A program made the translations under genes and the position numbers. A DNA stretch of 59,495 nucleotides, from the NCBI GenBank assembly GCA_032718475.1, contig JAUCBJ010008158.1:1-59495 (forward strand), in the 5' to 3' direction. Origin of the DNA: Nemertoderma westbladi. Taxonomy: Eukaryota; Animalia; Xenacoelomorpha. The notes beneath the pieces were generated by a model. It was not told the origin of the DNA. It did not search any database and worked only from the letters and a program-made list of their open reading frames with translations. Position 1 is the stretch's first letter. Each line of letters opens with the position of its first letter. Of the stretch, positions 17,813 through 44,171 are shown one piece after another.

Positions 17813-18342
17813 GGTGGTACAGTGTAGAGAATTAAGACCAGGTAGTGAATGGAGTTCAGAACATTCTAAGATGTGATTGGCCGTTTATCCCCAGTAATTT
17901 CTAAATAGGGTCGTTTGTCCCCCACTGGAGTAAACCTGCCTGGTTAATTCCTGTGAGAAGCTGATATTGTAACATAATTATTGTTTGTATGCTAGTTGTG
18001 AGTAACGAAGATTTATTGTTAAAGCTCAGATTTGAAAGCACCCCTTCACGAGGCCCTATACATTTAAATAAATTATAGTACTGTAGTATTCGCACAGATA
18101 CACTCTGGTGATAGTGGTATGTATGGAGGGAGTCTATGGAGTGTATGGGGTCAACCGGGCTTAATTAAGGATACATACATTATAATCCGTATATTCATAA
18201 TAATTGCTTCTTTATTCACAGTGTAAACATTTCAATGCAAACTCTAACTTAGGATATGCTATCATCTTAATTCTTAAATGCATCTCGTTTGCATTCATTG
18301 TAGTTTTTTCGAATACTGTCCAGTTTTTAGTGCACTTTGCAA

Positions 18343-20807
18343 GATTTATGGTCAACACTTCGAAATAGTCAACACTTCGAAAAACCATGTCAACACTTCG
18401 AAATAATGATATGAAGAGCATCTTTTTATCGTAAATTGTTACCCCATGTCAACACTTCAAAAGACAATGTCAACACTTCGAAAGACAATGTCAACACTTC
18501 GAAAGACAATGTCAACACTTCGAAAAGGGGCACTAAATTCCTTTCGAAGTGTTGACATGGTCACTAAATTCCTTTCGAAGTGTTGACATGGGCTCTAAAT
18601 TCCGTTCGAAGTGTTGACATGGGTACTAAATTCTTTTCGAAGTGTTGACATGGGCACTAAATTCCTTTCAAGTGTTGACATGGGCACTAAATTTCTTTCG
18701 AAGTGTTGACACGGGCACTAAATTCCTTTCGAAGTGTTGACATGAGCACTAAATTCCTTTCGAAGTGTTGACATGGGCACTAAATTCCTTTCGAAGTGTT
18801 GACATGGGCACTAAATTCCTTTCGAAGTGTTGACAAGGGCACTAAATTCCTTTCTAAGTGTTGACATGAGCACTAAATTCCTTTCGAAGTGTTGACATGG
18901 GCACTAAATTCCTTTCGAAGTGTCGACATGGGCACTAAATTCCTTTCAAAGTTTTGACATGGGCACTAAATCCCTTTCGAAGTGTTGACATGGGCACTAA
19001 ATTCCTTTTGAAGTGTCAACATGGGCACCAAATTCCTTTCGAAGTTTTGACATGGGCACTAAATTCCTTTCGAAGTGTTGACATGGGCACTAAATTCCTT
19101 TCGAAGTGTTGACATGGGCAATAAATTTCTTTCGATGTGTTGACATGGGCACTAAATTCCTTTCGAAGTGTCGACATGGGCACTAAATTCCTTTCAAAGT
19201 TTTGACATGGGCACTAAATCCCTTTCGAAGTGTTGACATGGGCACTAAATCCCTTTCGAAGTGTTGACATGGGCACTAAATTCCTTTCGAAGTGTCGACA
19301 TGGGCACTAAATTCCTTTCAAAGTTTTGACATGGGCACTAAATTCCTTTCGAAGTGTTGACATGGGCACTAAATTCCTTTCGATGTGTTGACATGGGCAC
19401 TAAATTTCTTTCGATGTGTTGACATGGGCACTAAATTCCTTTCGAAGTGTCGACATGGGCACTAAATTCCTTTCGAAGTGCTGACATGGGCACTAAATTC
19501 CTTTCGAAGTGTCGACATGGGCACTAAATTCCTTTCGAAGTGTCGACATGGGCACTAAATTCCTGTCGAAGTGTTGACATGGGCACTAAATTCCTTTCGA
19601 AGTGTTGACATGGGCACTAAATTCCTTTCGAAGTGTTGACATTGGCACTAAATTCCCTTCGAAGTGTCAACATGGGCACCAAATTCCTTTCGAAGTTTTG
19701 ACATGGGCACTAAATTCCTTTCGAAGTGTTGACATGGGCACTAAATTCCTTTCGAAGTGTTGACATGGGCACTAAATTTCTTTCGATGTGTTGACATGGG
19801 CACTAAATTCCTTTCGAAGTGTCGACATGGGCACTAAATTCCTTTCAAAGTTTTGACATGGGCACTAAATCCCTTTCGAAGTGTTGACATGGGCACTAAA
19901 TCCCTTTCGAAGTGTTGACATGGGCACTAAATTCCTTTCGAAGTGTCGACATGGGCACTAAATTCCTTTCAAAGTTTTGACATGGGCACTAAATTCCTTT
20001 CGAAGTGTTGACATGGGCACTAAATTCCTTTCGATGTGTTGACATGGGCACTAAATTTCTTTCGATGTGTTGACATGGGCACTAAATTCCTTTCGAAGTG
20101 TCGACATGGGCACTAAATTCCTTTCGAAGTGCTGACATGGGCACTAAATTCCTTTCGAAGTGTCGACATGGGCACTAAATTCCTTTCGAAGTGTCGACAT
20201 GGGCACTAAATTCCTGTCGAAGTGTTGACATGGGCACTAAATTCCTTTCGAAGTGTTGACATGGGCACTAAATTCCTTTCGAAGTGTTGACATGGGCACT
20301 AAATTCCCTTCGAAGTGTTGACATGGGCTCTAAATTCTGTTCCAAGTGTTGACATGGGCACTAAATTCCTTTCGAAGTGTCGACATGGGCACTAAATTCC
20401 TTTCGAAGTGTTGACATGGGCACTAAATTCCTTTCGAAGTGTTGACATGGGCACTAAATTCCTTTCGAAGTGTTAACATGGGCACTAAATTCCTTTCGAA
20501 GTGTTGACATGGGCTCTAAATTCTGTTCGAAGTGTTGACATGGGCACTAAATTCCTTTCGAAGTGTTGACATGGGCACTAAATTCCTTTCAAAGTTTTGA
20601 CATGGGCACTAAATTCCTTTCAAGTGTTGACATGGGCACTAAATTCCTTTCGAAGTGTCGACATGGGCACCAAATTCCTTTCGAAGTATTGACATGGGCA
20701 CTAAATTCCTTTTGAAGTGTCGATGTGCACTAAATTCCTTTCGAAGTGTCGATGTGCACTAAATTCCTTTCGAAGTGTTGACCATTTCGATGTGTTGACA
20801 CGGAATC
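18343..20807. mobile_element. Non-autonomous Mutator/Foldback-like TIR element with a 9-bp TSD
   Basis: ~40-bp imperfect TIRs: GATTTATGGTCAACACTTCGAAATAGTCAACACTTCGAAA on the left vs GATTCCGTGTCAACACATCGAAATGGTCAACACTTCGAAA (reverse complement of the right end). Flanked by ACTTTGCAA at 18334-18342 and 20808-20816. Confidence 0.8.
18527..20780. repeat. 31-bp tandem array (GGGCACTAAATTCCTTTCGAAGTGTTGACAT), ~72 copies, inside the TIR element
   Basis: Direct tandem repeats containing the TIR core TTCGAAGTGTTGAC; internal block duplication of ~650 bp (~19010 vs ~19661). Confidence 0.97.
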
Positions 20808-27012: not shown

Positions 27013-28172
27013 TGTAAAAGCTTTTGCGTCATTAACCGGTTATTTTCCCTTAAAGTACTCTGTAGTTGGTTTACCAGGCATAAAAAGGCCGTGTCCTTGC
27101 TGTACTGGTGTTTTAGAGGACATAAACGTCATTTCTTCTGTATTTGTACTTTAGAGGACATAATCCGCAATCTCGTGACGCGATAAGCTAGATACTCTTG
27201 AAAACAGTGTCGCTACCATGACGACGGCTAGCAGCTGATATTGCCACGTCGACATTTCTTTGTTTCTTTGTTCTCTCGTTGTTCGGTTGACCAATCAGAG
27301 CGTTTTTTGTCTCTGTGTTGGAGGTGTATACAGAACTCAGTAGTTCAGTGTTATGTTTTTGCCCAGAGCCTAAGAACACCGGCTTTTGGCACCTCCGTGT
27401 TTCAGTCTTTAGTCTTACATTAGTAGGCTTAATTATAGAACGTATATCTGTTACCAAACGACTTACGACCTACTTACTTATCATACATATCTATGCAATT
27501 CATATCTTACATTACTGCTTTTGCTGTTGGTTATTCGTTATATTTGTTGATGAATTATTATATCGGAATACTGATCAATAGTCAGACACCCCACCTTCTT
27601 GATATACTAAAGGTTAGAGAGACCGGTTACAGATAAATGATTGCGACCTATGTTGAGTGGTTTGAAGTGAATCTAATGCTATTTCATATGCCCAACATAA
27701 ATTGTCTGTTGCTCTCTTTATACGTGACCAAATTTAGTGAAGGTCGGCAGATTAGTGTGCAGTATTGTGCAGCATTGTGTATGATTGTAACTGATAACAA
27801 AGCATCTCCTAAAGAATGCGCCATATACGTAAATCTATAGCCTTTTCGTTGTGTCTAGTTTAAGTCATAACTCTGTTTACATATTTAGAGCGCCACGTCC
27901 TAAAGGAACTGTTAATATTTCCCGAAAGTAAATAATATTTGTCAGAGATTATATATTACGATCAGTCAAATAATACAGTAGGCTTACACCATCAATCATT
28001 AAGCTCCGAACTCAGTCTCCCGGGTATATCCAACGGGTGAATGATTGCGCATAGACTGGCTTCGGCTAATGTAGTGTATCAAATACTCGTCATAGGCTAA
28101 AGACTATCTATCATCCAAAAGACATTCTAATTTTGGCAGGTTAAACTGTCAAAGGTCTTAAAAGCGCAAACA
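27013..28172 (+). repeat. 5' LTR (1160 bp)
   Basis: TGTAAAAGC...AAAGCGCAAACA; direct repeat of 43003-44171. Confidence 0.95.
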
Positions 28173-28183
28173 ATAACAGATAT
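28173..28183 (+). promoter_or_regulatory. Putative self-priming primer-binding site (ATAACAGATAT)
   Basis: Immediately follows the LTR-terminal CA; does not start with TGG; reverse complement occurs in the LTR (43437-43447 11/11; 27444-27453 10/11). Confidence 0.7.
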
Positions 28184-28521
28184 TTGGTTCTGATTGCGGT
28201 GTAGGCAATAAATACAGTTTAATATTGTTTTGGTAAAAACAATAACAGATATTGCTTCTGGATTGCGGTGTAAGCAATCTAGTCGAAAGTACCGGTCGAC
28301 CGGTAACCAGTAGGCCTGACTGCCTGATCATCCGGACCGGTACCTACAACAGTACAGGTACAGCAGTATTATTCGATTTGATTATTATATGCCGGTAGGT
28401 CTTAATAATTAATCGGGGACGCCTGGTTTTTATTGGGATTTTACTTAGGCCTATTTCTGTCAGTTTTATTTATTTGTAGGCCAGTATTGAGCAGAAGGCG
28501 TGTAAGCCTGCTCAGATTGTA

Positions 28522-29097
28522 CAGATAATTTGTAGGCTTGACTGTTGGCTGACTGTTGATTAGGTCTGAACGGATTGCAGTGCATGTAAAGCATCTGTCC
28601 GATAAAGAACGGTTAGGAAGTAGGGGCAGCCAAAGCTGTAAGGTAAACCCCCATCTAAAGAATAAGTCGTACTACTGGGTTAGAACGCATACTACTTAAC
28701 CATTTCGGAGTCTGCATGTCCTGTGGTTTATTTAGGCTTGATAGTAGTCTGCCATCGTTTGGTCTGTACTTTGTTTGTGTAGTCTGTACGGGTAGCGTAT
28801 AATTTTATTTAGATAATTTGTAGGCTGGATAGTTGTCTGGCTGTTGTTGGGTTTGAGGAAATTTCGGTGTGTGCAAAGCATCTGTCCGATAAAGAACGGT
28901 TAGGAAGTAGGGGCAGCCATAGCTGTAAGGTAAACCCCCATCTAAAGAATAAGTCGTACTACTGGGTTAGAACGCATACTACTTAACCATTTCGGAGTCT
29001 GCATATACCGTAGTTTGTTTAGGCTTGATAGTAGTCTGTCAGTATTTGGTCTGCATTTTGTTTGAATGGTTTGTATGCGTAGCGTAATATTTATTAT
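28522..29097 (+). repeat. Tandem duplication (~289-bp period) in the retrotransposon leader, with a conserved structured core
   Basis: AGATAATTTGTAGGC at ~28522 and 28811; near-identical ~130-nt cores at ~28588-28717 and ~28876-29004. Confidence 0.85.
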
Positions 29098-30428
29098 TCA
29101 GAGTTTATGCGATTATTCGCAACATTCATATCCCCAAGTTTATTCCTACAGTAATTGTGTTTGTTATACATACCATTATAGTTAAACTAACCCCGGTACT
29201 ACATCAGGGTTGCTCGGCGTAGGTAAAGACTGGAGATTTTGTGCTTTGGTCACTCCGGCAGATACCGTGGTTCTTTTAGCTGTTCAAGTATTTTTAACTA
29301 CTAATTATTTGTTATACAAGTACTTGTACCTAATTTAGGGTTTAGTGTACAGTGCTTTCCGAAAGCAATTAGTGTGTAGGCAGTGTATTTGTGTTGTAAA
29401 GTGGTTAATAGGCACGTTGGTTCTGGTAGACCGCGGTAATTAACTTCTAGGTAGGGACACTCCGTGATACATAACGTAGTACCTATAGCGATACGGTTAT
29501 AGGTCGTCAGGCGGTGGTATTTTCCTATCTGGACAACACAGTATATTTACTACTACTTATTATTTTCAAATACCGTAGTAACCTGTCCGTTGTAATAACC
29601 AGATATTCTAACCCTTTGTTAGGCTGGTTAGTAGACTTCTTGTAAAATTACCCTAAAAATTTGTATTTGTGTATTTGTAATTAAGTTTTTGTGTTTATTT
29701 AGAGATTGTAATCTCAACCCGAATTGTACGTAATTTGTAGTATTAAGTAACTTAGTTAAATTAGAATTATTTGTTTTAGTGTCTAACAAGTAGCACTCCA
29801 CTGAGAGCGCACAGCTTATGTGTAGTGACTCCCCCAGAAATAATAACATTTATTTCAACATTGACAAAACCCATTAAAAGGGTATATATATATTATAAAT
29901 CAACTCAAACGATTTATAAATAGTAGGCCTGCCATACAACAATTAGGTCTCAATATCAGTTGGACTACTGCTTAAATAACGGTAATAAAGTAAGTTAAAG
30001 TAACCAAGTAACCATTAAAATTCAGAAATTCAATTATTTAAAATAATTGATATACCGGTATTTACAATAGGCTTATTATATTTATTTCTATAAATTTTAG
30101 GTTGAAATCATACCGGTATTCTGTAATTAATTCTAGTCTATAATTATACTTATATATACTATAAGTGTAAACTGCATACCGGTATCCACGATAGGCCTAT
30201 TATATATTTATATATATTTGTGCTAAAATTATATACCGGTTTCTGTGAAAAACCTAGTCTGTAATAATACTTATATATACCATAAGTATACCGGTATTCT
30301 AATATTATATATCACGCTACACTGAGTAGCAGTATCGGTAATTAATTACTAGGCTAGCAGTTAACACTGAATTCCTAGACTTGCTTAGACTGTAATATAG
30401 CAGTAGACATTCAACTGTGTAAACAAAC

Positions 30429-33400
30429 ATGTCTGATACTAAGCAGAACCTGTCAGACAGTTTATTAGATGTAACTATCTGCGACTCAGATAAGGGTGTA
30501 GAACCGTCTAGTCCTAAGTTCAGTTCACCTCCCACTGTGAGGAAGGTCATCCCTCCAGTAGTAATAACAGAACCGAGGCTGGTCCAACATCGTAGGTCTA
30601 TCATAGGCACTCGAGCTCAGGTCAAGCGGGACCAAGAAGCAGCGGAACAGCAACAACCCGCGAGCCAAGAACTTATTTCTCAGCGGCCCAACAGCTCCAG
30701 TAGTGAGGATACTGTAGAGCTGACACCCGAGCGCGGAGCAAGGATGACGGATGCGGTTTATTCGGATCCCCTTCTCATCCTTCCTGCAGCCGTACTCACC
30801 AGGTTATTGATCGCTGAGGAAGAACACCAGATCGATTGGGCGAGAAGTAAGCGATCAACTAAAGATAGTTATGAGGGATACACAAGGGAAGAACTGAAGT
30901 CTATGGTCGAGTCGCAATGGAACTTCCCCGGACCCGGACTCCCGTTTTATTTATCAGAAGCTGCCTGGGAAGACATACACCGGATGGGAGTAGTCAAGGA
31001 AACCATCGATCCAGCTGTGTGGAAGAGGTCCGCAGCCGGATATGCACAGGGATTCTTCAGCTCTATGGAGCGAGTAGAAAAACAACTGTTTCAACAACCT
31101 CAAGGACCTCAAGAGCAGGGACAACTGCTTTATCAAGTTAGAGAAAGAATTCTGCGAATCAGGCTAATATTATCAGCCTTTGAAGAGGCTTCTAAAAGAA
31201 GACAAGACACGTCGTTGCAAGTTGCCGTAAAGACTTGGTTTCAACGGGTGAGTCGCCAGGTTCAAGGAACAGTTCAGTGGAAAGCTCAGCTGGAGGAGCG
31301 CTCAACCCATGGAGAATCAACAGACGCTACTTTTTCCCAAGTGGAAAGTGAAGCGACGGCAGAGAAACCGCATAAGAGGGATGCCATTGACATCTATCTG
31401 TCAGACTATCAACGTTTTTTGGGAGATGAAGAGTTGAGGAGAAGGCTAGATGGACTTAGCCCTAATAGTGAAGGAGCACAGCGTGTGCTTGACGCCATCA
31501 ACGTGGATAGGTTAGCGGCTAACCAAGCTAAATTCGATGAACAACTCCGCATCGCTAAGGTTCAAGAAGAACAAATAAAGAAAAAACGTATAGAAGACAG
31601 AAAGATAGCAGCAGTGGCAGAGGCAGAAAGAAAAGTGACCTTGGCAGAGGCAAAAGCGGCAGCGGCAGAAGCAAAAGCGGCAGCGGCAGAGGCAAAAGCG
31701 GCAGCGGTGGCGGAAGCAGAACGGAGAGCGGCTGAAGAGATCGCCCAACTAGAGTTGGAAAATCTTCAAGAGAAGCAAGACGACTTCAGTAAACAGTTAA
31801 CAGCTAGTAATATGCAGATGATGAATCGATCTACTCCCAAAAGACAGGGTTATACATCATCTGAGGAAGGCGATACCACTGATCCTGAAGGAGGAGGAAA
31901 ACGATCTCGCCTAAGCAGACGTAAAAGAACATCCCACCGTCAGAAATTGCCTGATTTGCCTCCAGCTGTTAGAAGGCAACTAAATAACACCAACTTAGGT
32001 AGTACAGAACCCACAGACCATATAATTACAATAGAGAGACTCCCTACTATAGCAGATGAGCCTGAAATAATTAGGCCTGTTCCCGAAGCCACCCTTTCGG
32101 TGGTAGAGACACCTGTACACCTGACACACCTGTTACCTGTGCCCAGAGGAACAGCCCTTGAAACCGTGTCGGTCCTGGACTCCGAGCGAAATATAAAGGA
32201 TATATCGCCCGTAGTCCCTCGTCTGCCCGCTACTACGTTGGCGGATCCCGCTTCGGCGGTTGATTGGGTGGACGAGAGACGGCGGGGGATGGACATTCTC
32301 CTCGGAAAGATGGAGGAGAATCAAATGCGCTCCTCCCAACAGGTCCGAGAGTTAGAAGGAACTGTTCAACAGTTAAAGGGAACCGTAAAGGAAAGTAGGT
32401 TAGAGTTGCAAGAAGTGCAGCAAAATATCGCGCTAGAACGTGATAAATTAGTAAATTTACAAAGGGGTATACCACCACCCCCTGTAACAATGTGTCAACC
32501 TGTTAGGTCTGAAGTATCTCATGCGCAAGGTGTGGAGCCTACACGCATCTATACTGCTAGCGAAGTAGAAACTCCTATAGTGAACCCTATTAAGGGTAAT
32601 TATAGACCTGTTGATAATGATATTCCCTATAGACCGGATCATAATCCGAGAAATTTATATACCGATAACTCGATATTAAATAACACGATGGCCCAAGAAA
32701 GTTTTACGCGTCAAATGGCTAGAACCGAAGCCCAGCAAGCAGTAAAGGTGGGAGAGATCGTCAAGTTCAATGGAGATGAGATGAAATGGTTACCTTTTAA
32801 TGAATATTACAAAGATAACATACAGAACTCTGTGCTATCTAATGGAGAGAAACTTAGATTCCTCATCGAGTGCTTGGAAGGATCTCCCAAGTTAATGGCG
32901 TTAAAGTTTATTGGACATCCTGACGGATTAAGACAAGTTTGGGATACAATAAACATCAGGTATGGTAATAGGAATAACATAGCTGGGTATTTGTATGCAA
33001 AGTTGGTAGTGCCCCGAAAGTTTATTAGCAGCGGAATTATAGAGTTTTCCGATGAGATTCAGGAGATCTGCAGACAATTAGATTGGCTAGGTAAGTCTCA
33101 TGAGTATCAGAATACTATGGTTATTAGAGCAGTGGCTTCTACTTTACCGAAGGGTGGAGTAGGTACACGCTGGGATAAGAAAGTGTTATATATGATGGAA
33201 CAACAACGACGAGACCCTACCATGGCTGATCTCATGTCATTCCTAGATGGAGAAGTGAAATTACAGCTCCTGAAACTGTCCAGAGAGAAGACACCGGAAA
33301 ACAAGGTAAGTGAAAAACCCGTCTCTAGGAGAAAGGTAACACCAGTGTGTTATACAGACGACGGCGAAAGCCAGACTTCTCAAGGAGAAGATAGCGGGAA

Positions 33401-34016
33401 AGACACTGATAGATCTTATTACGTAAATAAAATGCCTAAAGATCACGTAAGTAAATTCAAGTCTCGAACAAATGACAGGAGAGAACAGGTAAGAAAAACT
33501 CCTCCTACGTCTCCCAAGAGAATTCAGGTGAGAAAGCCCGAAGAAAAAGCAAGTGTACACAATGTTACTCAGAGTAAGGTAAGTAACATCAAACCGAAAT
33601 GTGCGCTATGTGATGGGACCCATCGCTTAAATATGTGTGATGAATTTCTAAAGAAATCATTAACTGAGAGACGTGAAGTCATGTGGGACAAGCGGTTGTG
33701 CTATAATTGCCTCAGACAAGGACACCAACGGAGAACCTGTTACTCTGACACAAGATGTGCCAAGTGCGGTGCGAAACATCATATCTTGTTGCACACTGAA
33801 TTCGAGCGAAATAGTCCGAGTCAGGTAAGTGATTCAGAATTACATGTCCAATTCAGTGATGTGAACGACACTGATCAATCTGAGATGGAAGGATTCTATA
33901 CGGACGAGTTCTCCGACGAAAACGAATCCTGTTACATGATAAATACCACAGTGTATCGAGCACTCATTTATGAAAAAGATACAGACATTGACCTCGCTCT
34001 AACTACTTCTGATTGA
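30429..34016 (+). CDS. gag: BEL/Pao Gag (1195 aa)
   Basis: Long N-terminal coiled-coil region with AEAKAAA repeats; DUF1759-like KFNGDEMKW...EKLRFLIECLEG; knuckles CALCDGTHRLNMC, CYNCLRQGHQRRTC, CAKCGAKHHILLH. Confidence 0.95.
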   Translation: MSDTKQNLSDSLLDVTICDSDKGVEPSSPKFSSPPTVRKVIPPVVITEPRLVQHRRSIIGTRAQVKRDQEAAEQQQPASQELISQRPNSSSSEDTVELTPERGARMTDAVYSDPLLILPAAVLTRLLIAEEEHQIDWARSKRSTKDSYEGYTREELKSMVESQWNFPGPGLPFYLSEAAWEDIHRMGVVKETIDPAVWKRSAAGYAQGFFSSMERVEKQLFQQPQGPQEQGQLLYQVRERILRIRLILSAFEEASKRRQDTSLQVAVKTWFQRVSRQVQGTVQWKAQLEERSTHGESTDATFSQVESEATAEKPHKRDAIDIYLSDYQRFLGDEELRRRLDGLSPNSEGAQRVLDAINVDRLAANQAKFDEQLRIAKVQEEQIKKKRIEDRKIAAVAEAERKVTLAEAKAAAAEAKAAAAEAKAAAVAEAERRAAEEIAQLELENLQEKQDDFSKQLTASNMQMMNRSTPKRQGYTSSEEGDTTDPEGGGKRSRLSRRKRTSHRQKLPDLPPAVRRQLNNTNLGSTEPTDHIITIERLPTIADEPEIIRPVPEATLSVVETPVHLTHLLPVPRGTALETVSVLDSERNIKDISPVVPRLPATTLADPASAVDWVDERRRGMDILLGKMEENQMRSSQQVRELEGTVQQLKGTVKESRLELQEVQQNIALERDKLVNLQRGIPPPPVTMCQPVRSEVSHAQGVEPTRIYTASEVETPIVNPIKGNYRPVDNDIPYRPDHNPRNLYTDNSILNNTMAQESFTRQMARTEAQQAVKVGEIVKFNGDEMKWLPFNEYYKDNIQNSVLSNGEKLRFLIECLEGSPKLMALKFIGHPDGLRQVWDTINIRYGNRNNIAGYLYAKLVVPRKFISSGIIEFSDEIQEICRQLDWLGKSHEYQNTMVIRAVASTLPKGGVGTRWDKKVLYMMEQQRRDPTMADLMSFLDGEVKLQLLKLSREKTPENKVSEKPVSRRKVTPVCYTDDGESQTSQGEDSGKDTDRSYYVNKMPKDHVSKFKSRTNDRREQVRKTPPTSPKRIQVRKPEEKASVHNVTQSKVSNIKPKCALCDGTHRLNMCDEFLKKSLTERREVMWDKRLCYNCLRQGHQRRTCYSDTRCAKCGAKHHILLHTEFERNSPSQVSDSELHVQFSDVNDTDQSEMEGFYTDEFSDENESCYMINTTVYRALIYEKDTDIDLALTTSD

Positions 34017-37000
34017 CAACCATCTTGGAAAGCGCCAACTTCCAATGTAGGGATTAGAGAATTTCCTGTGGTACAGGTAAGGGTCCACGGACCAAACAGG
34101 AGTTATGTAGTGAACGCCCTCCTTGACTCCGGTAGTACAGGAACATTCATCGACAAAGAGCTAGCCGAAGACATATTCGCTGGACAACCCAAGTTCCGAA
34201 CTAAGCTAAACATGTCAGGAATTATGCAAGTTTGGAAATCCACAGTAACCGCGGATTATTATGTAGGTGCGTTGTCCACCCCCCAGGACGAACTAGGAGA
34301 ACATAGTATAAGGTCAGTGAAAATGGTGGCTATAAAGAACTTCGCTACTACTCAAGCAGACCTTTATAATTGGGACGAGGATGAGAGCATCCAACATCTT
34401 AAGATACCTCGATTCCAGACTGATTATCCTGGAGTGCAAATACTTATCGGCCAAAACGCGCATGAGGCGCTTGAGACATTGGAGAAACGACCTGCTCAGC
34501 CGCAACCTCTACAAGTTTATGCGGGAAGAACTAGAGTAGGTTGGTACTTTACTGGCCCTTCCTGTAGAACTCTCATGGAAAGATTACCGAAAGATCAGGT
34601 ATATCAAGTGCGAGAATGGGAAGTTGAGAACAGTGAGTTCGACGATCCAACTGAGGGAACTCCATACTCCTCAGACAACGACGATATACATCAACTCTTC
34701 GATGAGGAGAATGCCATCGATCTCCTTGAAGAAAGCGAGACTTGGCAAAATCAAGTGAACTTATGTCAACTCCTTCTCCCATCCGAGCGAGACGACTATA
34801 ACGACGAGCTTAATGACGTCATTGAACGTTATAATGCCAAGACTCGGGATGAACACGCCGTGAGATTCTTTACTCAAGAGGTCGTAGAGCCCAACTCCTA
34901 CGATAAGGCCCTATCGGTGGAGGAAGAAAGAGCCAAGCAGATCCAAGCGACAACTACTCGTTTTCTTAAAGATCAAGGTAGATATGAGATCGGTCTTCCT
35001 TTCCGAAAGCGAGAACCAAAGTTCATTAACAACAGACCTTTGGCAGAGAAAAGAATTGCTCAACTACATCGACGCCTTACGGCCAATTCTTCAGCTAAAG
35101 AAATGTATCAAACACAGTTGAAGAAGTTTATTAGCAAGGGATATGCGGAGCTAGTACCGGAAGAAACACCTATAACTGAGAGAACGTATTACTTAACTCA
35201 CCATTACGTTCCCAAACCCGGTAAACCCCATGAAGTACGAGTGGTGTTTGACGGTTCCGCCCTTTATATGGGCCAATCTCTTAATTCTGAATTGTTACCC
35301 GGACCCAACTTACTCCAATCCTTGTTGGGAATATTATTAAGATTAAGACAATACTCCATTGCTTTCGCCTCAGATATAGAAGGCATGTTCTTACAAGTCA
35401 AAGCGCTGGATAGGGATCGAGATAGCCTACGATTTTTGTGGTGGCCTGAAGGAGACCTCAATAAGAAACCTGTGGAGTACTGGATGACCATCCAAGCTTT
35501 TGGGATAATCTCGAGCCCTTCAAACGCCTGTTCCGTGGTGCGCACCACTGCGGATGACAACCGAGACGCCTTCTCTAAAGAAGTGATCGACAATATCAAA
35601 CGAGACATCTACATGGACGATAATCTAAAGTCCCTTCCATCAGTCGAAGAAGCCATTGACGTCACTAAAGGAACGGTAGAGTGCTTAAAAAGAGGTGGAT
35701 TTCGATTAACTAAATTCACCAGCAACTCCCGTGAGTTTCTGGAGTCGATCCCGGTAGAAGATCAAGGAGCAAAAGACCTAGATCTAATAAAGGATGATCT
35801 CCCAGAAACTAAGACCCTTGGTTTGAAATGGGACACAGAAAGAGACATCCTGTTTTTCCAATTAAAACAGCGAGATAATCCAGTTCGGACTAAACGGATT
35901 TGTTTAAGTATCCTGAGCACTTATTTCGATCCATTGGGATTTATTAGCCCAGTTATATTGATTGCTCGGAGTTTAGTACAACAAATGTGGCTTGAAAACC
36001 ACTCATGGGACGATCCACTTAAGGGAGAATTATTAAAGAAGTGGATGAAATGGGAAGATTCTCTACCAGCCATCGAAAACTTCATAATTTCCCGTTCATA
36101 TTTTGGTCATGTTCTCCCTACGTATTCATATCAACTCCATGTGTTTGGAGACGCCAGCGATATGGGAATAGGTATAGTAGCCTACCTAAGGGTGGAAACT
36201 CCGGACGGAATTAAAGTCGCCTTGGTTACCTCTAAGGCATTAATAAACAACAAGTTGAAAGTTCCTCGAGCGGAGTTAAAAGCGGCTCTATACGCTACAG
36301 CCATCGGCCGGAATGTAACAGAACAGATCGACTATCCTCTGGAGAAAACTGTCTATTGGACCGACGCTTTACTCGTGTTGGAGTATATAACCAATGAAGT
36401 CTGTCAGTTCAGCGTCTTCGTTACCAACAGAGTAGCTATTATACTCAGTCGCACGACGATGGATCAATGGAGACATTGCCCCGGAACGATTAATCCAGCG
36501 GACATCGCTTCCCGGGGAGCAACCCCACAAGAACTGGTAGATACTCCAGACTGGTTAGGTGGACCCGACTTCCTCTACAAAGAAGAAGAAGAATGGCCTC
36601 CTCATCTTACTACAGCAGAAATTAGACAGGCCAAGGGAGCGGAGAAAGTCAAACCTAAAACTCAGGCGAGTAAATCGAAGTTATTCAAACCCACAGTAGA
36701 TCTGTCTGTACTACATACTTCTGGAGACGAAGCTTTGGATCAGAAACCCACAGCCACAAATAAACTCGTTGTGGAAATCCGTGATAAGGATTGGAAATCT
36801 GGTATACCTGACATCTCGCAAGGACTCTCACCTCTTCTGCAGAGAGCGATACATCACTACAGTTCTTGGAATCGGCTTTGTAAGGCCGTTACATATTTAA
36901 AGAGATGTTTTCACCATCACTACTCTGGGATGAAAACAAAGGGTGATACCGCTCCAATCACATCAGTGCAGGTCCATGTTATTAAAGACATTCCCAAATA

Positions 37001-38495
37001 TAAGGTACCCGACAAGTTTCTGAAGGAAAAGATCAGTTATCAGGAGCATGAAGAAACCAACAAACAGATGCTGAGACTCTTACAATGCTATGAAGATTCC
37101 GATAAGTATTTCCTGTTGTTGAGAAATCCACAGATGCGCTTAAGGGATCGTTTCTCTAGCACAATGATAGATGGGTTGATACGTGTTGGAGGAAGGTTAA
37201 CGAATGCCCCATTATCCTTTGATACTAAGTTCCCCATACTCATTAGAAATCTTGAAATACAAGTCAAGATGATTGTAGATGTTCACAGCAAACTTTATCA
37301 TGCTGGTAGAGAACGAGTTCTTAGCGAAATTCGAACTCGCTATTATTTTTATAAACCCCGTAGAGCTCTGAACCAAGTTCTTAGGAACTGTATACCCTGT
37401 AGGAAAGCATTCAGTAGGCCTTTAACACAGAGAGAGGCAGAATTACCTAGGGAACGAGTAAGCTTTTATGAACCACCCTTTACTAATACCGGTGTGGATT
37501 TATTTGGCCCTATTGAAGTATATCGTGCTAGGACTATAGTCAAGAGATGGTGTGTAATCTTTGTTTGTATGACTTGTAGAGCCATCCATCTCGATATGGT
37601 GAACGATTTATCTACCAACAGCTTTCTATTAAGCTTACGACGACAAATCGCTCGCTTTGGCACTAGTAACACGATGAGATCTGATAAGGGAACAAACTTC
37701 ATTGGTGCCAGCAATGAAATCAAAGCTTACGTCAAAGATTGGAACCAAAGACAGGTGGACGACCAACTACGAGTAACAGCGTCTAGTTGGACCTTCAACG
37801 CCGCCGACGCCCCTTGGTGGGGAGGAAGTTGGGAGAGATTAATAAGAAGCGTGAAGACAGCATTTCATTTTATAGTGCCTTGCCGCGCTTATCTCACCGA
37901 CGAACTTTTGCGGACGTTAATGGAAGAAATCGCCGCCTATCTCAACGAGAGACCGCTTATGCCAGTCTCATCGAGTCCCGATTCCCTGGAAGCGCTAACA
38001 CCCGCGCACTTCCTACTGAAGAAACCTGTAGCCATGCTCCCACAATCGGAAATCACAGACGGAGACGAATACTGCCGACAAACTTGGCAACTCATGCAGT
38101 TGTTATCCCGTCGTTTCGCTGACCATTTCGAAAAACATTATCTGCCCACGCTACAACTTCGAACTAAGTGGTTTGCGCAGCAAGAAAACGTCAGCGCTGG
38201 AGACATGGTGCTTATTGTGGATGTGGATCTTCCACGTAAGCGGTGGCAGACAGGTCGTATAATCGAGACGCATATCTCGGATGACGGTTTGGTGCGATCG
38301 GTAGAACTCGTCGTCATGCGACGTAACTTCAAGAAACCGGGAATTGTCTTCGAGACGCAGCAGCTCAATCGCCCGGTGGGACGTTTATGTTTACTGGAAA
38401 GAGACAGAGAACTCTCCGGAAACTATGGGAGACAAGATACTCTTCCCACGACCACCTCCCTAATCCAACAAACATCTAGGGACTCCCCAACTTAA
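34017..38495 (+). CDS. pol: BEL/Pao Pol (protease, RT, RNase H, integrase); same frame as gag, probably made by TGA readthrough
   Basis: LLDSGS (PR); RVVFDGS, ASDIEGMFLQV, YMDD (RT); FGDAS, PRAEL, WTDA, NPADIASRG (RH); HHCC, GVDLFGP, SDKGTNF, WERL (IN). The frame is open from 34017, directly after the gag TGA. Confidence 0.96.
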   Translation, partial: QPSWKAPTSNVGIREFPVVQVRVHGPNRSYVVNALLDSGSTGTFIDKELAEDIFAGQPKFRTKLNMSGIMQVWKSTVTADYYVGALSTPQDELGEHSIRSVKMVAIKNFATTQADLYNWDEDESIQHLKIPRFQTDYPGVQILIGQNAHEALETLEKRPAQPQPLQVYAGRTRVGWYFTGPSCRTLMERLPKDQVYQVREWEVENSEFDDPTEGTPYSSDNDDIHQLFDEENAIDLLEESETWQNQVNLCQLLLPSERDDYNDELNDVIERYNAKTRDEHAVRFFTQEVVEPNSYDKALSVEEERAKQIQATTTRFLKDQGRYEIGLPFRKREPKFINNRPLAEKRIAQLHRRLTANSSAKEMYQTQLKKFISKGYAELVPEETPITERTYYLTHHYVPKPGKPHEVRVVFDGSALYMGQSLNSELLPGPNLLQSLLGILLRLRQYSIAFASDIEGMFLQVKALDRDRDSLRFLWWPEGDLNKKPVEYWMTIQAFGIISSPSNACSVVRTTADDNRDAFSKEVIDNIKRDIYMDDNLKSLPSVEEAIDVTKGTVECLKRGGFRLTKFTSNSREFLESIPVEDQGAKDLDLIKDDLPETKTLGLKWDTERDILFFQLKQRDNPVRTKRICLSILSTYFDPLGFISPVILIARSLVQQMWLENHSWDDPLKGELLKKWMKWEDSLPAIENFIISRSYFGHVLPTYSYQLHVFGDASDMGIGIVAYLRVETPDGIKVALVTSKALINNKLKVPRAELKAALYATAIGRNVTEQIDYPLEKTVYWTDALLVLEYITNEVCQFSVFVTNRVAIILSRTTMDQWRHCPGTINPADIASRGATPQELVDTPDWLGGPDFLYKEEEEWPPHLTTAEIRQAKGAEKVKPKTQASKSKLFKPTVDLSVLHTSGDEALDQKPTATNKLVVEIRDKDWKSGIPDISQGLSPLLQRAIHHYSSWNRLCKAVTYLKRCFHHHYSGMKTKGDTAPITSVQVHVIKDIPKYKVPDKFLKEKISYQEHEETNKQMLRLLQCYEDSDKYFLLLRNPQMRLRDRFSSTMIDGLIRVGGRLTNAPLSFDTKFPILIRNLEIQVKMIVDVHSKLYHAGRERVLSEIRTRYYFYKPRRALNQVLRNCIPCRKAFSRPLTQREAELPRERVSFYEPPFTNTGVDLFGPIEVYRARTIVKRWCVIFVCMTCRAIHLDMVNDLSTNSFLLSLRRQIARFGTSNTMRSDKGTNFIGASNEIKAYVKDWNQRQVDDQLRVTASSWTFNAADAPWWGGSWERLIRSVKTAFHFIVPCRAYLTDELLRTLMEEIAAYLNERPLMPVSSSPDSLEALTPAHFLLKKPVAMLPQSEITDGDEYCRQTWQLMQLLSRRFADHFEKHYLPTLQLRTKWFAQQENVSAGDMVLIVDVDLPRKRWQTGRIIETHISDDGLVRSVELVVMRRNFKKPGIVFETQQLNRPVGRLCLLERDRELSGNYGRQDTLPTTTSLIQQTSRDSPT

Positions 38496-40138
38496 CAACG
38501 GCTGGAGTGGGCGTGTGACCATATTATTTTATATTTGTATTTGTTTTATTTTTATATTTATGTATGTATTATTATGTAATTTTATTTTAATCGTTTTATT
38601 TAATTTTATTTAGTAGTATGTATTTTAGAGATTATTTAGTAGATTAGTGCAATATATATTCGCGTTTATTATTTAATTACGTATATTATATATTTAGTGC
38701 GACGGCGAGAAATAATTCTTTTTCTCTTTCCTTACTGCCCGTATTACATTATCAATACGTGATTACAGTAAGATGAAATATCCGTACTTATTAAAGTACA
38801 ATAAAGCCACTACTATATTCAAGTATTATTGGTAGGCAGAGTATTAGGAATGCAAAGTTCAGATCCTCGTGTCTCGGCTAAACCAAGCTCTGGGTAGACC
38901 TTGGAAACGACTTGCCTCTTCACACTGACATTGCTTCGTGCGATATTGCTCTCATACCGTATATTAAATAATACATATAGTAGCGTGATGTCCCTTTAAC
39001 AGTAGCGTATAACGCAAAATAAATCTGTTAAACCCTTTGACCATCTGTAATTCTAGTCGATTAAGATATCGCGGCACCCACCGATATACTTGAAAGACAA
39101 ATTTCTAGAATCAGTGGTTAACGTCCCCAGACAAGTTCTGGAATAAACTGGTGCCCATCCTAAATATTAATTATTAATATTTACAAAAATCTGTCAAATA
39201 TCAGATCCTTTAAAATTCTAGTCGATTAAGATATCGTAGCACTTACCGATACTCTTAAAAGGACAATTTTCCTAGAATCAAGGATCCCATGTCCCCAGAC
39301 ACTGCTCTGGAATCAAATTGTGTCTATTTTAACATCAAATAATAAAATTCACGGGAATAAATTTAAATTCATACTTTCAATGAATTTAATAAATTGTCAT
39401 TTTGTACAATTTATAACATTCCCAAAATTCCATTAATTAATAGATCATGGGAGCGGAGATTCACTCTATTAAGTGTATTTGTGTGCGAGAATCTCCAATG
39501 TATAGTCAATAGCCGATAAAATTCATAGAATCATGTATAAAGGGGATATTGACCATTAAAGAATTACTATTAAATAGCATCCCAGATCTGTATGCATGAG
39601 AATTACCCTAATTCTACCGCTAGCTTTCCATAATGTCACCATGGCAACAACCACGCTAGAATTAGAAGTGAGTTAAAAGAACAATAGAAAGCATGCCCCA
39701 TTGAATAGCATAGGGAATAAATAGCGCACTGCTAGTATCCAAGGATACATAATAAATACAGTGACATTCTGGAAGGTACTGACTAACGGACAAATGGCCC
39801 GAATGTGTGCAGTTTGTTGCAGTTGTGTTGAATTTGTGCGTTTGTAGGTGAATGTTACTACTAAGGTGTGTTTACAGTAGCGAGTCGCAATTGTGAAAGT
39901 AACCCTAACTCTCCAAGAAGAACCTGCAGTACATCTAAGCCTTTGGGACGGACAGTGAAGTGACTTGTGCCGGTTATCGTTGTCGTTGTGTAGCTACATC
40001 GTTGGCGAAAGCACAGCGACGACGGTACATCGGCGCTGAGGATCTTACACTGTCCGGGGGCAAAAGAGGGGTAGGCAGCGACGCCCGCTAGCCTAATATA
40101 TATAAACTCATTATAATATTGATAAACTCATAGCAGAT

Positions 40139-42924
40139 ATGACTGAGTTGATAGAAGATGATCTTGGCATCAGGGAGCGATATACTCTACCTTTACAAGC
40201 GTTTGTCGATAGCTTGATACGCGGCGACGCTGGTCCAACTACTACGGAGGATGATGGTCGTTATATCGAACCGCCAATGTCCCCGGAGCAACTTACGCGT
40301 GAATTGGACTATAGAAAGTTCACCGCTCGCTATACGCATCGTAATGGTACGTATATGGACTTCTTAACTACCGGCCACCCTATCGATTTACACGATACGG
40401 ACGATGTGGATACCGAAAGGGAAATGGTTTTATTTAAATATCATACCCAACGGAATCGGAACGATAAGCCAAGAATAGAACACGAGAACTCTATTCGAAA
40501 CCGACTCGAAAGAGAAGACGTTGAAGAACCGGATAAACGCAACGACTTCAACGATTATCTGGAATTCTTGAGAGAAACATACCTCCGTATAATCTTGATG
40601 GATTCATCAAAACTCGTTTAGTGCACTGGAATCTTGATGTGTTATTCGAGGAGGAAAGAATACAACGATATGGAGATGTGGAAACATATACCACACAATA
40701 TTTAAAGTATAAAGACCTGCCTAATGCTAGCGAATGTGCTACCTTGTGGCATCCTATGGGAATGACACTCGAAAACGCCACTAAAGAGTGGAACAAAACT
40801 CTTAACGTTATCGAGATGTATGGAGTTGTCACTTACGATAACGAAGGTAGCGTTCCGGTTGGATAACTTGGAACTACGCGGATGATACACATACGAGGAC
40901 TCGCTGGTTCTACCCACGTATTTACTCGAGCGTGTTCCGACGTTATTGATTATTCTTTTGAAACTCTTACTGAGACACAAAAGAAACTCCGACATGGACA
41001 ATTTGAGCTCGCGCAGCGTTACGTCACCGACACCGAGCGCAAACCGGCCATGGGTATCGATGGATCGATGTTACCCCAACCCGTGCTCGAGATGTTGTTT
41101 AACGAAGGAATCCTTAAAATCGGCTCAGCTGTTTATGGAGACCTACAGAACGACTTTCGGAATATGGAGAACATTCCATACCCCTTCGTTGATACTCAGC
41201 TGATTGCTCCTTGGGCAGAAGGCCGAGGTTTCTTCCGCACTATGTATGCCAATACTAAAGTACAACGAACCTCCATCGGACATCTTGCCTTTCAAGAATA
41301 CGGATGGAATTTCAAGGTTGGAAATCCTATAAATTACCAACAAGTATACGGAGATCATTATTCTCGTTTATACTTTGATGGACCGTTGACCGCACCTGGC
41401 GCCGTGTATAGCTTTATGAGTGTTCCACTTCGTCCCTCCTTAGCTATATACACGATCTTTGAAAACGCAGCACTTGCCGGTTGGCTAGCCGATGTGTGCA
41501 GTCGTACCATACGCGCCCATCCCTTAATACTTGGAACCAAACTCGCCAAGTTAGATGAACACAATAAATTCATCCGCTTTGAATGTTTCAGGCGCTTTCT
41601 GACTCCGTTCCGTAACGTTGATAGTCAGTTCAAGGACCGCGCTCTGACCAAACTCAGCCTGAGAGACTCAGCGGCGGAGAAGCTAAACAGCGCGGGATTT
41701 GCCCTTTTTCAGGACGTTTGTATACAGAACTTGCACTCATCTGTTATACAAAGACCCCGAATACCCACAGGTTATTCTGTCGTCGAAGTTCAGACAGTGG
41801 GTCCGCTTGCGGAGACAGCCGCACCTACCTCAGCTATGCAATTGGAAGACGAACCAATATGCTTAGAAGCTGAAGCGATTCAGCCTACAGCGCCCCGGAG
41901 CAGCGATAACGACTACGTCTTAGAGTGGTATCAAGGTCCACAATGTCTCACCGCATACGATTATCGACACGCTAACTATGTTTCTCGAAAACGTTGTCGA
42001 TTATGCGCATCGAGAGACCATTTCAATCCTATGGACTCAGACGTTCCCTGTTCCTATTTCCACGAACAACCAATGATGGAGATATATTGTGCGTATTGCA
42101 GACTTAATAACTCTCATATTTTTGCAGTCTGCCCCCAATTTATGACTCAATGCCACCACTGTCAACTTAAAGGACATGCCAGTTATAATTGCCCCTTTAA
42201 TCACGATTTAGAGAGCGTAGATGAAATGATTACCCTGCGCTACATCCGAGCTTGGGAAGCTAACGCGGATTTACACTGTGAGTCCCGTCATCGATACTAC
42301 CCTGGACGCTCTTACGAGGGAGTTTACGCGTTCCATCCTTATTTATTAGCGTCTGTGGAACAAAAAACACGCATACCGAGTTACGAGCTAATGAAGCGTG
42401 TTGGTGAGTGTATTTCCACTAAATTTGTTAGAAGATACCTTAGGAACGTCAATCCTAACGATATTACTTCATACCATTTGATCAATTATATCCGTCAAGA
42501 CCCTGAGTATGGCGATTTATTTATCAACTCGCACCCGGAGTTACAGGAAGTATCTCGACGGCCCTACGAATATCGAGCCCGAGAACGCGAGCTGGAAAGA
42601 ACTATTAAACCAAGGAAGTTTCTCACCACTCACGGTCCGCCTACCGCCATTGCCCAGACAACCCGTCAAGGACCCGTAGGAGCTGCTGTCCTGAGGCGCG
42701 CCCTAAAGGCTGTTAGACCTCACTCCACGGAAGTTGATATCGATCAACCAGGTACCTCGACCGGCGGATACACCGATCGCAATCCGAAACCTTCTGATGC
42801 AATTGTATTGCACCCTTCACCCAGGAGTTACAGCCCTCCTAGTAAAGTGGTTCGCCCCAAAGAGAAAAGGACTCTTGCTAGCCTCAAAAAACTGCGTAAA
42901 CGCCGTCCGCGTAAGAAAGACTAA
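40139..42924 (+). pseudogene. Retrotransposon ORF3: DEDDy 3'-5' exonuclease-like domain + CCHC zinc knuckles + basic tail (~928 aa reconstructed; 1 frameshift, 1 in-frame stop)
   Basis: ORFs 40139-40621, 40621-40866 and 40882-42924 join through a -1 shift near 40575 and an in-frame TAA at 40864-40866. Motifs VVTYDNEG, LPQPVLEMLFNEGILKIGSAVYGD, FVDTQ, SIGHLAFQEYG, GPLTAPGAVY; knuckles CAYCRLNNSHIFAVC and CHHCQLKGHASYNC. Confidence 0.8.
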
Positions 42925-42994
42925 CTGTTTAGAGTATTTTTATATTTTAGAAACTGTGATTTGTTATATTTTATAGACTTAAATCCCATTTTCT

Positions 42995-43002
42995 GGGAGC
43001 GG
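42995..43002 (+). promoter_or_regulatory. Polypurine tract
   Basis: GGGAGCGG directly before the TGT of the 3' LTR. Confidence 0.7.
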
Positions 43003-44171
43003 TGTAAAAGCTTTTGCGTAATTAGCCGGTTATTTTCCCCGTAAAGTACTCTGTAGTTGGTTTACTGGGCATAAAAAGGCCGTGTCCTTACTGTACTGGT
43101 GTTTTAGAGGACATAAAAGCCATTTCTTCTGTATTTGTACTTTAGAGGACATAATCCGCAATTTCGGGACGCAATAAGCTCGATACTCTTGAAAACAGTG
43201 TCGCTACCATGACGACGGCTAACAGCTGATATTGCCACGTCGACATTTCTTTGTTTCTTTGTTCTCTCGTTGTTCGGTCGACCAATCAGAGCGTTTTTTG
43301 TCTCTGTGTTGGAGGTGGATACAGAAACTCAGGAATTCAGTGTTATGTTTTTGCCCAGAGCCTAAGAACACCGGCTTTTGGCACCTCCGTGTTTCAGTCT
43401 TTAGTCTTACAATTAGTAGGCTTAATTATAGAACGTATATCTGTTATCTACCTACTTACTTACTCACTCACTATCCATAAACTATTAATCTTACAAATCT
43501 TACTAATATTACTGCTTTTACTGTCGGTTATTCGTTATATTTGTTGATGAAATATTATATCGGAATACTGATCAATAGTCAGACACCCCACCTTCTTGAT
43601 ATACTAAAGGTTAGAGAGACCGGTTACAGATAAACGATTGCGACCTATGTTAAGTGGTTTGGAGTGAATCTAATGCTATTTCATAGGCCCGACATAAATT
43701 GTCTGTTGCTCTCTTTATACGTGACTAAATTTAGTGAAGGTCGGCAGGTTAGTGTGCAGTATTGTGCAGCATTGTGTATGAGTGTAACTGATAACAAAGC
43801 ATCTCCTAAAGAATGCGCCATATACGTGAATCTATAGCCTTTTCGTTGTGTCTAGTTTAAGTCATAACTCTGTTTACATATTTAGAGCGCCACGTCCTAA
43901 AGGAACTGTTAATATTTCCCGAAAGTGAATAATATTTGTCAGAGATTATATATTACGATCAGTCGAATAATACAGTAGGCTTACACCATCAATCATTAAG
44001 CTTCCGAATTCAGTCTCCCGGGTATATCCAGCGGGTGAATGATTGCGCATAGACTGGCTTCGGCTAATGTAGTGTATCAAATACTCGTCATAGGCTAAAG
44101 ACTATCTATCATCCAAAAGACATTCTAATTTTGGCAGGTTAAACTGTCAAAGGTCTTCAAAAGCGCAAACA
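43003..44171 (+). repeat. 3' LTR (1169 bp)
   Basis: Direct repeat of 27013-28172, roughly 95% identical by eye outside a divergent block at ~43448-43510. Confidence 0.95.

What the first reader, a model, noticed from the sequence alone, without database searches (positions are those of the whole stretch)
40139..42924. Extra ORF in the env slot encodes a DEDDy 3'-5' exonuclease fused to zinc knuckles
Seen: three listed ORFs form one ~928-codon gene (one missing base near 40575, one in-frame TAA at 40864), lying inside the LTRs with no signal peptide or TM segment. It has ExoI (YDNEG, 40834-40848), ExoII (LKIGSAVYGD), FVDTQ and a PLT...Y segment, spaced as in WRN/EXD/RNase D/Mut-7 exonucleases. 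The ExoIII Asp seems replaced (YSFMSV). Three Cys/His clusters (~41995-42192) and a K/R-rich tail follow. Established: this fold includes small-RNA pathway proteins (Mut-7/Nibbler, EXD1, Egalitarian). From memory and unverified, a nematode Cer element was reported with an RNase D-like domain, so novelty needs checking. Inference: an accessory RNA-binding nuclease or pseudonuclease that may counter piRNA silencing, or trim the RNA to make the self-primer 3' end.
Basis: partly seen in the sequence, partly recalled or inferred. Interest (0 to 1): 0.86.

Follow-up and report, generated by a model that had tools for sequence, protein, structure and literature searches.

The report
Retrotransposon carrying its own RNA exonuclease
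A 17-kb BEL/Pao-type jumping gene carries, where some relatives have an envelope gene, an extra gene that is conserved as protein across many copies and likely encodes an RNA-trimming enzyme joined to zinc fingers, which would possibly help the element resist the host's RNA silencing; similar extra genes are already described in unrelated rotifer elements.

Summary
Real, with two corrections. The ORF lies between pol and the 3' LTR of a 17.2-kb BEL/Pao-type element (LTRs 94.5% identical). It is a family feature: thousands of contigs from several runs lie on it, and the listed differences are mostly synonymous (29 of 38; about 34% expected). A DEDDy/RNase D-like domain is supported by several weak but convergent tests (NCBIfam RNase D as the only hits, ESM Atlas, a WRN-like profile) and by one distant relative (30% identity) with the same exonuclease + three CCHC knuckles + basic tail layout; no fold match was significant. 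Correction 1: ExoIII is most likely PLRPSLAIYTIFEN (41425-41466), not YSFMSV, so the acidic set is D-E-D-E plus Tyr, kept in the relative; this favours an active enzyme over a pseudonuclease. Correction 2: the 5' break is a larger junction, not one missing base, so 928 codons is not the true length. DEDDy ORF3s are in print for bdelloid LTR and Penelope-like elements; my searches found none for BEL/Pao or fused to knuckles in a retroelement. The element also looks self-primed (Tf1-like). Target RNA untested. New variant of a known kind; interest 0.55.

The parts
27013..28172 (+). 5' LTR (TG...CA, 1160 nt)
   Evidence: blastn 94.5% to the 3' LTR; ends
27444..27454 (+). candidate self-primer segment in the 5' LTR (10 of 11 bases complementary to the PBS in this LTR copy)
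28173..28183 (+). primer-binding site abutting the LTR, complementary to an LTR segment rather than starting with TGG
   Evidence: 11-nt complement in the 3' LTR, 3 of 3000 Markov controls; 13-nt complement with a compensatory change in the relative, 0 of 3000
30429..34016 (+). gag (DUF1759, BEL-type knuckles), ends in TGA in frame with pol
34017..38495 (+). pol: protease, RT (YMDD), RNase H, integrase; Peptidase_A17, Integrase_H2C2, DUF5641
   Evidence: best relatives 33-44% identical, all carrying PF05380
40139..40585 (+). ORF3 N-terminal piece, no family hit; coding (8 of 9 listed differences synonymous)
40579..40585 (+). junction where this copy lacks sequence present in other copies (frame break)
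   Evidence: loose contig ends on both sides
40834..40848 (+). ExoI motif YDNEG (Asp101, Glu103 of the read-through P0001)
   Evidence: placed by the block test; aligns with IDVER of P0122
40864..40866 (+). in-frame stop private to this copy
   Evidence: all covering contigs differ at the site: 31, 26, 5 and 3 contigs in X1, X3, X4, X5
41113..41142 (+). ExoII motif LKIGSAVYGD (Asp202)
   Evidence: zone hit by NCBIfam RNase D and the WRN-like profile; Asp codon differs only synonymously among copies
41425..41466 (+). revised ExoIII segment PLRPSLAIYTIFEN (Tyr304 at 41446, Glu308 at 41458)
   Evidence: aligns with PLCHDQLYYIYCEN of P0122; Leu and Tyr invariant in A3; on the long C-terminal helix of the model
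41995..42192 (+). three Cys/His clusters (zinc knuckles; third canonical CCHC)
   Evidence: Pfam zf-CCHC_3 E 0.15; Atlas leads 0.77-0.87; same three clusters in P0122, which hits nucleocapsid knuckles at E 1e-4
42805..42924 (+). K/R-rich tail and stop of ORF3
   Evidence: P0122 also ends in a basic stretch
42995..43002 (+). short purine-rich tract before the 3' LTR (PPT-like)
   Evidence: sequence
43003..44171 (+). 3' LTR; holds the perfect 11-nt PBS complement at 43437-43447; no target-site duplication

Best explanation
ORF3 is an accessory gene of a multicopy BEL/Pao-type retrotransposon family, broken in this copy but conserved as protein in others, that likely encodes an active RNase D/WRN-type 3'-to-5' exonuclease (acidic set D-E-D-E plus Tyr) joined to three zinc knuckles. 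By analogy with trypanosome RNase D, the knuckles would hold single-stranded RNA and feed its 3' end into the nuclease (inferred). The most likely beneficiary step is defence against the host: shortening or destroying small silencing RNAs or their precursors so that the element's transcripts survive (inferred, untested). It is not an envelope protein.
For: Shown: position inside the LTRs; many diverged copies in runs of three studies of organism A and one of organism B; synonymous excess 29 of 38 and 20 of 24 in the exonuclease zone; stop private to this copy. Fold: only 2 hits among 18950 NCBIfam models, both RNase D, E 0.013 and 0.03; Atlas top three clusters all PF01612, 0.89-0.90; first of 1122 targets with a 128-sequence WRN-like profile, hhalign 0 of 150 shuffles; block chain 0 of 500; relative P0122 (E 1e-8, 30%) keeps D62, E64, the ExoII Asp, Y229 and E233 and the knuckles. 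Analogy: TbRND couples a DEDD domain to CCHC fingers that bind the RNA and raise cleavage (PMC7797062 passages). For the target: DEDDy ORFs recur in retroelements with very different replication modes (PMC5408684), which points to a host-facing role; EXD1 shows this fold acts in piRNA biology (PMC4712191 passages).
Against: No Pfam, PHROGs or PDB sequence hit for the domain; every single fold test is weak and mostly confined to the ExoII zone; ExoI and ExoIII blocks alone do not beat shuffles (77 and 277 of 500); a mixed bacterial profile gave nothing. The model is poor (pLDDT 54, built with bacterial rows) and Foldseek gave no match under E 0.2. The fourth acid is Glu, not Asp. Egalitarian keeps all five residues yet does not need them. 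Bdelloid elements with ORF3 are still covered by small RNAs and show no clear copy-number gain (PMC5408684). Nothing here identifies the substrate.
Confidence: 0.35

Rival explanations
1. The enzyme works on the element's own RNA: after a cut downstream, it would trim the 5' fragment of the transcript back to the 11-13-bp duplex with the PBS, making the self-primer's 3' end, or process other RNA or cDNA 3' ends in the particle.
For: The PBS is complementary to an LTR segment with a compensatory change in a related element; that pairing closes the predicted fold of the relative's leader, z -4.8 on 20 shuffles; knuckles resemble nucleocapsid; Rodriguez et al. propose 3'-end processing.
Against: Tf1 self-priming is attributed to the RNase H of RT (title in the reference list of PMC4600332), and pol here keeps its RNase H motifs; the transcript start is unknown; co-occurrence of ORF3 and self-priming could be seen in one family only; the window's own 5' leader does not form the pairing.
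Confidence: 0.22
2. The domain is a catalytically idle RNA-binding adaptor (EXD1- or Egalitarian-like) that binds, transports or shields the element's RNA or sequesters piRNA factors.
For: Glu in place of the last Asp; long insertions in the core; Egalitarian keeps its catalytic residues without needing them; EXD1 is inactive and binds RNA.
Against: All four acidic positions and the Tyr are kept between two proteins only 30% identical, whereas EXD1 orthologues have lost them.
Confidence: 0.25
3. The domain is not of the DEDD fold; the motif matches are chance.
For: No significant Pfam, PDB or Foldseek match; Atlas scores of 0.9 occur in 4-10% of shuffles and the shared-feature count (145) is low.
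Against: Independent tools name the same family for ORF3 and for P0122.
Confidence: 0.07
4. ORF3 is a one-off captured host gene or nested insertion with no role for the element.
For: The window copy is broken in three places and lacks a target-site duplication.
Against: Present across runs and diverged copies with a strong synonymous excess; contigs run across the ORF3 ends into element sequence; no own termini or duplication; no close cellular homologue among 1.84 billion representatives.
Confidence: 0.04

Closest known systems
DEDDy ORF3 of bdelloid rotifer Juno and Vesta LTR retrotransposons and Athena/Terminon elements (PMC5408684)
   Same: RNase D-like DEDDy exonuclease in the ORF3 slot after pol, no TM or coiled-coil env features, function untested, altered tetrad.
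   Different: Host element here is BEL/Pao-type; tetrad is D-E-D-E (paper: DEED); three C-terminal CCHC knuckles and a long N-terminal region; common descent not tested (no rotifer ORF3 came up).
Trypanosoma brucei RNase D, TbRND (PMC7797062; PDB 7c42/7c45)
   Same: DEDDy domain followed by CCHC fingers that bind the RNA substrate.
   Different: Cellular, four fingers, canonical DEDD, trims guide-RNA U-tails; no sequence link shown, so an analogy.
WRN/EXD2/Mut-7 (Nibbler) exonuclease domains, Pfam PF01612
   Same: Motif order and ExoII and ExoIII spacing.
   Different: About 15-26% identity in forced alignments to bacterial members, below Pfam detection; long insertions; last Asp is Glu.
EXD1 and Egalitarian
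   Same: DEDDy fold used for RNA binding in germline RNA pathways.
   Different: EXD1 lacks the acidic residues; neither is element-encoded nor carries these knuckles as far as the passages read show.
Belpaoviridae (BEL/Pao), ICTV profile PMC8742986
   Same: LTRs, gag, pol order PR-RT-RH-IN, Pao-specific Pfam domains.
   Different: 17.2 kb against 4.2-10 kb; no tRNA-type PBS; third gene is a nuclease, not env-like.
Tf1/Sushi self-priming retrotransposons
   Same: PBS abutting the LTR and complementary to an LTR segment.
   Different: Those are Ty3/gypsy (and some copia) lineages (PMC6317226 passages); start site and cleavage not shown here.

Membership tests
DEDDy 3'-5' exonuclease | ExoI Asp-x-Glu after the first core strand | tested here: met
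   YDNEG, kept as IDVER in P0122
DEDDy 3'-5' exonuclease | ExoII Asp | tested here: met
   Asp202; synonymous change only among listed copy differences
DEDDy 3'-5' exonuclease | ExoIII Tyr | tested here: met
   Tyr304 invariant in A3, Y229 in P0122
DEDDy 3'-5' exonuclease | ExoIII Asp four residues after the Tyr | tested here: not met
   Glu in ORF3 and in P0122; hence filed as DEDDy-like (D-E-D-E variant), not as a canonical member
DEDDy 3'-5' exonuclease | RNase H-like alpha/beta fold | tested here: inconclusive
   single-sequence model pLDDT 31; alignment-guided model pLDDT 54 with the expected strand/helix order, Foldseek ranks 1-13 all DEDDy but E >= 0.24 and biased by the bacterial rows
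DEDDy 3'-5' exonuclease | metal-dependent 3'-5' nuclease activity | not testable with these tools
   needs biochemistry
CCHC zinc knuckle | C-x2-C-x4-H-x4-C | tested here: met
   third cluster exact, first two variant; conserved in P0122
env-like ORF3 | signal peptide and transmembrane anchor | tested here: not met
   maximum 19-residue hydropathy 1.2; the part missing at 40579-40585 could not be examined
BEL/Pao (Belpaoviridae) | gag-pol with PR-RT-RH-IN order and Pao-type domains between LTRs | tested here: met
BEL/Pao (Belpaoviridae) | RT phylogeny inside the family | not tested
   no tree built; all 120 listed Pol relatives carry PF05380
BEL/Pao (Belpaoviridae) | tRNA-Arg/Gly PBS and 4.2-10 kb length (ICTV profile) | tested here: not met
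   17.2 kb; PBS matches the LTR; hence 'BEL/Pao-type', departing from the profile
Tf1-type self-priming | PBS complementary to an upstream LTR segment | tested here: met
   with a compensatory change
Tf1-type self-priming | that segment is the transcript's 5' end and is cleaved to prime | not testable with these tools
   only contigs, no raw RNA reads

The most novel reading that the evidence does not exclude
A distinct, very large BEL/Pao lineage has dropped tRNA priming for self-priming and carries a dedicated, ancient D-E-D-E exonuclease with zinc knuckles, a retroelement-specific protein family (30% identical relative elsewhere), which either makes the primer's 3' end or destroys host piRNAs: a transposon-encoded nuclease suppressor of silencing or a new primer-maturation route.
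Probability: 0.3. Interest if true: 0.85.

Novelty: new variant of a known kind. Interest (0 to 1): 0.55.

Why it matters
Whether animal retrotransposons encode their own enzymes against piRNA silencing is open, and the DEDDy ORF3s of rotifer elements were left untested in the papers read. This adds an independent case in another superfamily, with selection evidence, a conserved active-site set and an RNA-binding module, so the question becomes testable on a single protein. The accompanying self-priming signature would extend that mechanism to BEL/Pao elements.

Tried and rejected
No whole genome was held. Word-seeded homologue searches found nothing for ORF3, nor did scans of metagenome contigs, plasmids, PDB sequences or PHROGs (one unknown family, E 0.32). 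A mixed profile of 36 bacterial exonucleases did not score ORF3; a 10-sequence profile was marginal (20 of 1000 shuffles as high). Plain MAFFT without P0122 put ExoI on TDTER; rejected because it deletes two core strands and P0122 lacks the motif there. Rival ExoIII segments: YSFMSV (scores -23.7 in P0122, partly deleted there) and W257..D273 (Asp is Pro in P0122); the position-specific scores alone do not separate the candidates in ORF3. Single-sequence AlphaFold failed; the wide structural search was busy twice and never ran. No RNA holder was listed; X5 is only guessed to be RNA, so nothing is said on expression. Context of P0122 not found (singleton, 9449-nt ENA contig), so it is not known to be element-borne. 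No tRNA genes or Rfam families. Earlier findings: four look-ups, all empty. The paper recalled for a Cer RNase D domain was not held, and two Cer searches did not show the claim. No phylogeny against host EXD1/EXD2/Mut-7 was made: no such sequences were on hand.

Full report
1. The element. Self-comparison gives two LTRs, 27013-28172 and 43003-44171, 94.5% identical, with TG...CA ends and no target-site duplication. [quoted passage not shown] The 120 listed Pol relatives are 33-44% identical and all carry the Pao domain PF05380. So it is a BEL/Pao-type element of a lineage without close relatives in that database. At 17.2 kb it exceeds the 4.2-10 kb of the ICTV profile (PMC8742986, whole text read).

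2. The observation. Laying public contigs on 39900-43100 gave 19552, 6533, 325 and 108 contigs in runs X1, X3, X4 (organism A, three studies; X1 may be the window's source) and X5 (organism B); these are counts of contigs, not copy numbers. At the stop, every covering contig differs from the window (31, 26, 5, 3), so the stop is private to this copy. At 40579-40585 contigs from the left and from the right both stop fitting and carry other sequence (one has 285 unfitted letters; the joint table lists none across the place), so this copy lacks a longer piece or is a junction; the 928-codon figure is not the family's length. X4 and X5 contigs also hold 15 more letters at 41252.

3. Selection. Of the 40 best-supported differences listed (785 more not shown), I dropped one outside the ORF and the stop site; 29 of 38 are synonymous against 33-34% expected for random transitions (p 5e-7), in all three parts of the gene (8 of 9, 14 of 19, 7 of 10). 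Of the 40 listed (154 not shown), 29 of 39 are synonymous, 20 of 24 in the exonuclease zone. The two lists overlap and are a selected subset, so this is not a formal dN/dS. A search for termini or a duplication around ORF3 found only an A/T-rich 13-mer.

4. The fold. Pfam, PHROGs and PDB sequence searches did not find the domain. A blind NCBIfam scan gave 2 hits among 18950 models, both ribonuclease D (E 0.013, 0.03), on the ExoII zone. The ESM Atlas returned PF01612 clusters as the top three (0.90, 0.89, 0.89), from a query lacking ExoI; by the tool's own figures this is borderline. A profile of 128 bacterial WRN/EXD2-like proteins, whose best PDB hits are WRN, EXD2 and Mut-7 (seed alignment), ranked ORF3 first of 1122 targets, and hhalign beat 150 of 150 shuffles; two smaller profiles were null or marginal. 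An ordered seven-block test scored 41.4 against 4.9 +/- 4.8 (0 of 500 shuffles, 0 of 120 Pol proteins) and put ExoI on YDNEG, but the ExoI and ExoIII blocks alone were not significant. The search of 1.84 billion representatives gave one hit, P0122 (648 aa, E 1e-8, 30%), with the same layout; its only Pfam leads are zf-CCHC (E 0.046) and PF01612 (E 0.2), and its knuckles match retroviral nucleocapsid (E 1e-4). Together these make a DEDDy-type fold very likely (about 0.9, my judgement), though no single test is strong. A model guided by alignment A3 reached only pLDDT 54; it shows the expected order of strands and helices, and Foldseek ranks 1-13 are all DEDDy nucleases, but at E >= 0.24 and with bias from the bacterial rows.

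5. The active site, revised. Pairwise alignment with P0122 pairs YDNEG with IDVER, the ExoII Asp with an Asp, and PLRPSLAIYTIFEN with PLCHDQLYYIYCEN, which has the spacing of WRN's PLTEDQKLYAATDA. In A3 the Leu and Tyr of this segment fall in invariant columns, and in the model it sits on the long final helix while YSFMSV does not. The acidic set is thus D-E-D-E with Tyr, kept at 30% identity. That favours metal binding and activity; EXD1 pseudonucleases have lost these residues (PMC4712191 passages), but Egalitarian keeps them without needing them (bioRxiv 10.1101/2025.08.03.668247 passages). The assignment rests on one relative.

6. Priming. The 11 bases after the 5' LTR are complementary to LTR position 435 in the 3' LTR (3 of 3000 Markov controls; 10 of 11 in the 5' LTR). 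A related element on the minus strand has a 13-base complement at the homologous place with a compensatory change (0 of 3000) and no TGG; its leader folds with this pairing (z -4.8, 20 shuffles, start chosen by me), whereas the window element's leader does not. This is the Tf1-type signature (PMC4600332, PMC6317226 passages). It bears on the primer-trimming idea but does not prove it.

7. Mechanism. Shown: a maintained accessory gene with DEDDy-like motifs and knuckles. Inferred: knuckles bind single-stranded RNA and serve the nuclease, as in TbRND (PMC7797062 passages). Inferred and weak: the substrate. I rank host small silencing RNAs first (0.35), because such ORFs recur in retroelements that replicate differently; an idle RNA adaptor 0.25; processing of the element's own primer or ends 0.22; not DEDD 0.07; passenger 0.04.

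8. What is known. Rodriguez et al. 2017 (PMC5408684, parts 1-3 of 5 read: main text) describe RNase D-like DEDDy ORF3s in bdelloid Juno and Vesta LTR elements and Athena elements, with a DEED variant and untested function; reviews repeat this (PMC5718144, PMC6431247, PMC6338049 passages). The BEL/Pao survey PMC3118150 has no occurrence of 'exonuclease' in its main text (supplements with element sequences not opened). Nine searches listed no paper on a BEL/Pao exonuclease ORF, on an exonuclease-knuckle fusion in a retroelement, or on BEL/Pao self-priming; the library lacks most subscription papers and Repbase. I also recall an RNase D-like domain reported in a nematode Cer element; unverified, and if right it lowers novelty further.

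9. Verdict. A real, selected accessory gene; DEDDy-like with a D-E-D-E set and three knuckles; new variant of a known kind. Interest 0.55; 0.85 if the nuclease proves to be a silencing suppressor or a primer-making enzyme.

Noticed in passing
window 28173-28183 with 43437-43447; relative 1249-1261 with 2017-2029 (minus): Tf1-like self-priming signature in a BEL/Pao-type element, with a compensatory change between two subfamilies; my two searches listed no paper on this for BEL/Pao. Possibly as interesting as ORF3.
   Followed up: partly
window 34014-34022: gag and pol are in one frame, separated by TGA followed by CAA CCA, which fits the stop-CARYYA readthrough context (motif recalled, not from a call).
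   Followed up: no
window 1-2489 (minus): Internally deleted relative: LTR 74% identical, short leader, then a jump into mid-gag at about 860; runs off the window.
   Followed up: partly
window 27013-28172 versus 43003-44171: 30 of 67 LTR differences fall in LTR positions 400-499, right after the self-primer segment, and there is no target-site duplication: likely a recombinant of two copies.
   Followed up: partly
window 40114-40541 and 42789-43002: Summed contig depth is several times higher at both ends of ORF3 than in its middle, and one deep contig skips 40507-41844: abundant deleted derivatives are likely.
   Followed up: no
window 28173-30428 and 38496-40138: 2.25-kb leader with a 290-nt duplication (28523/28811) and a second PBS-like copy at about 28238; 1.64-kb non-coding gap before ORF3 with a 140-nt duplication (39049/39214).
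   Followed up: no
window 8010-17813 and 18528-20782: Satellites of 36 nt (272 copies) and 31 nt (73 copies); a 32-nt array at 2490-3410 abuts the relative's LTR.
   Followed up: no
window 3942-5695 (minus): Broken frames that look like a non-LTR reverse transcriptase remnant (by eye, YLTDLDFADD).
   Followed up: no
protein P0122: Unnamed 648-aa ENA singleton with the same exonuclease + three knuckles + basic tail layout; context unknown.
   Followed up: partly
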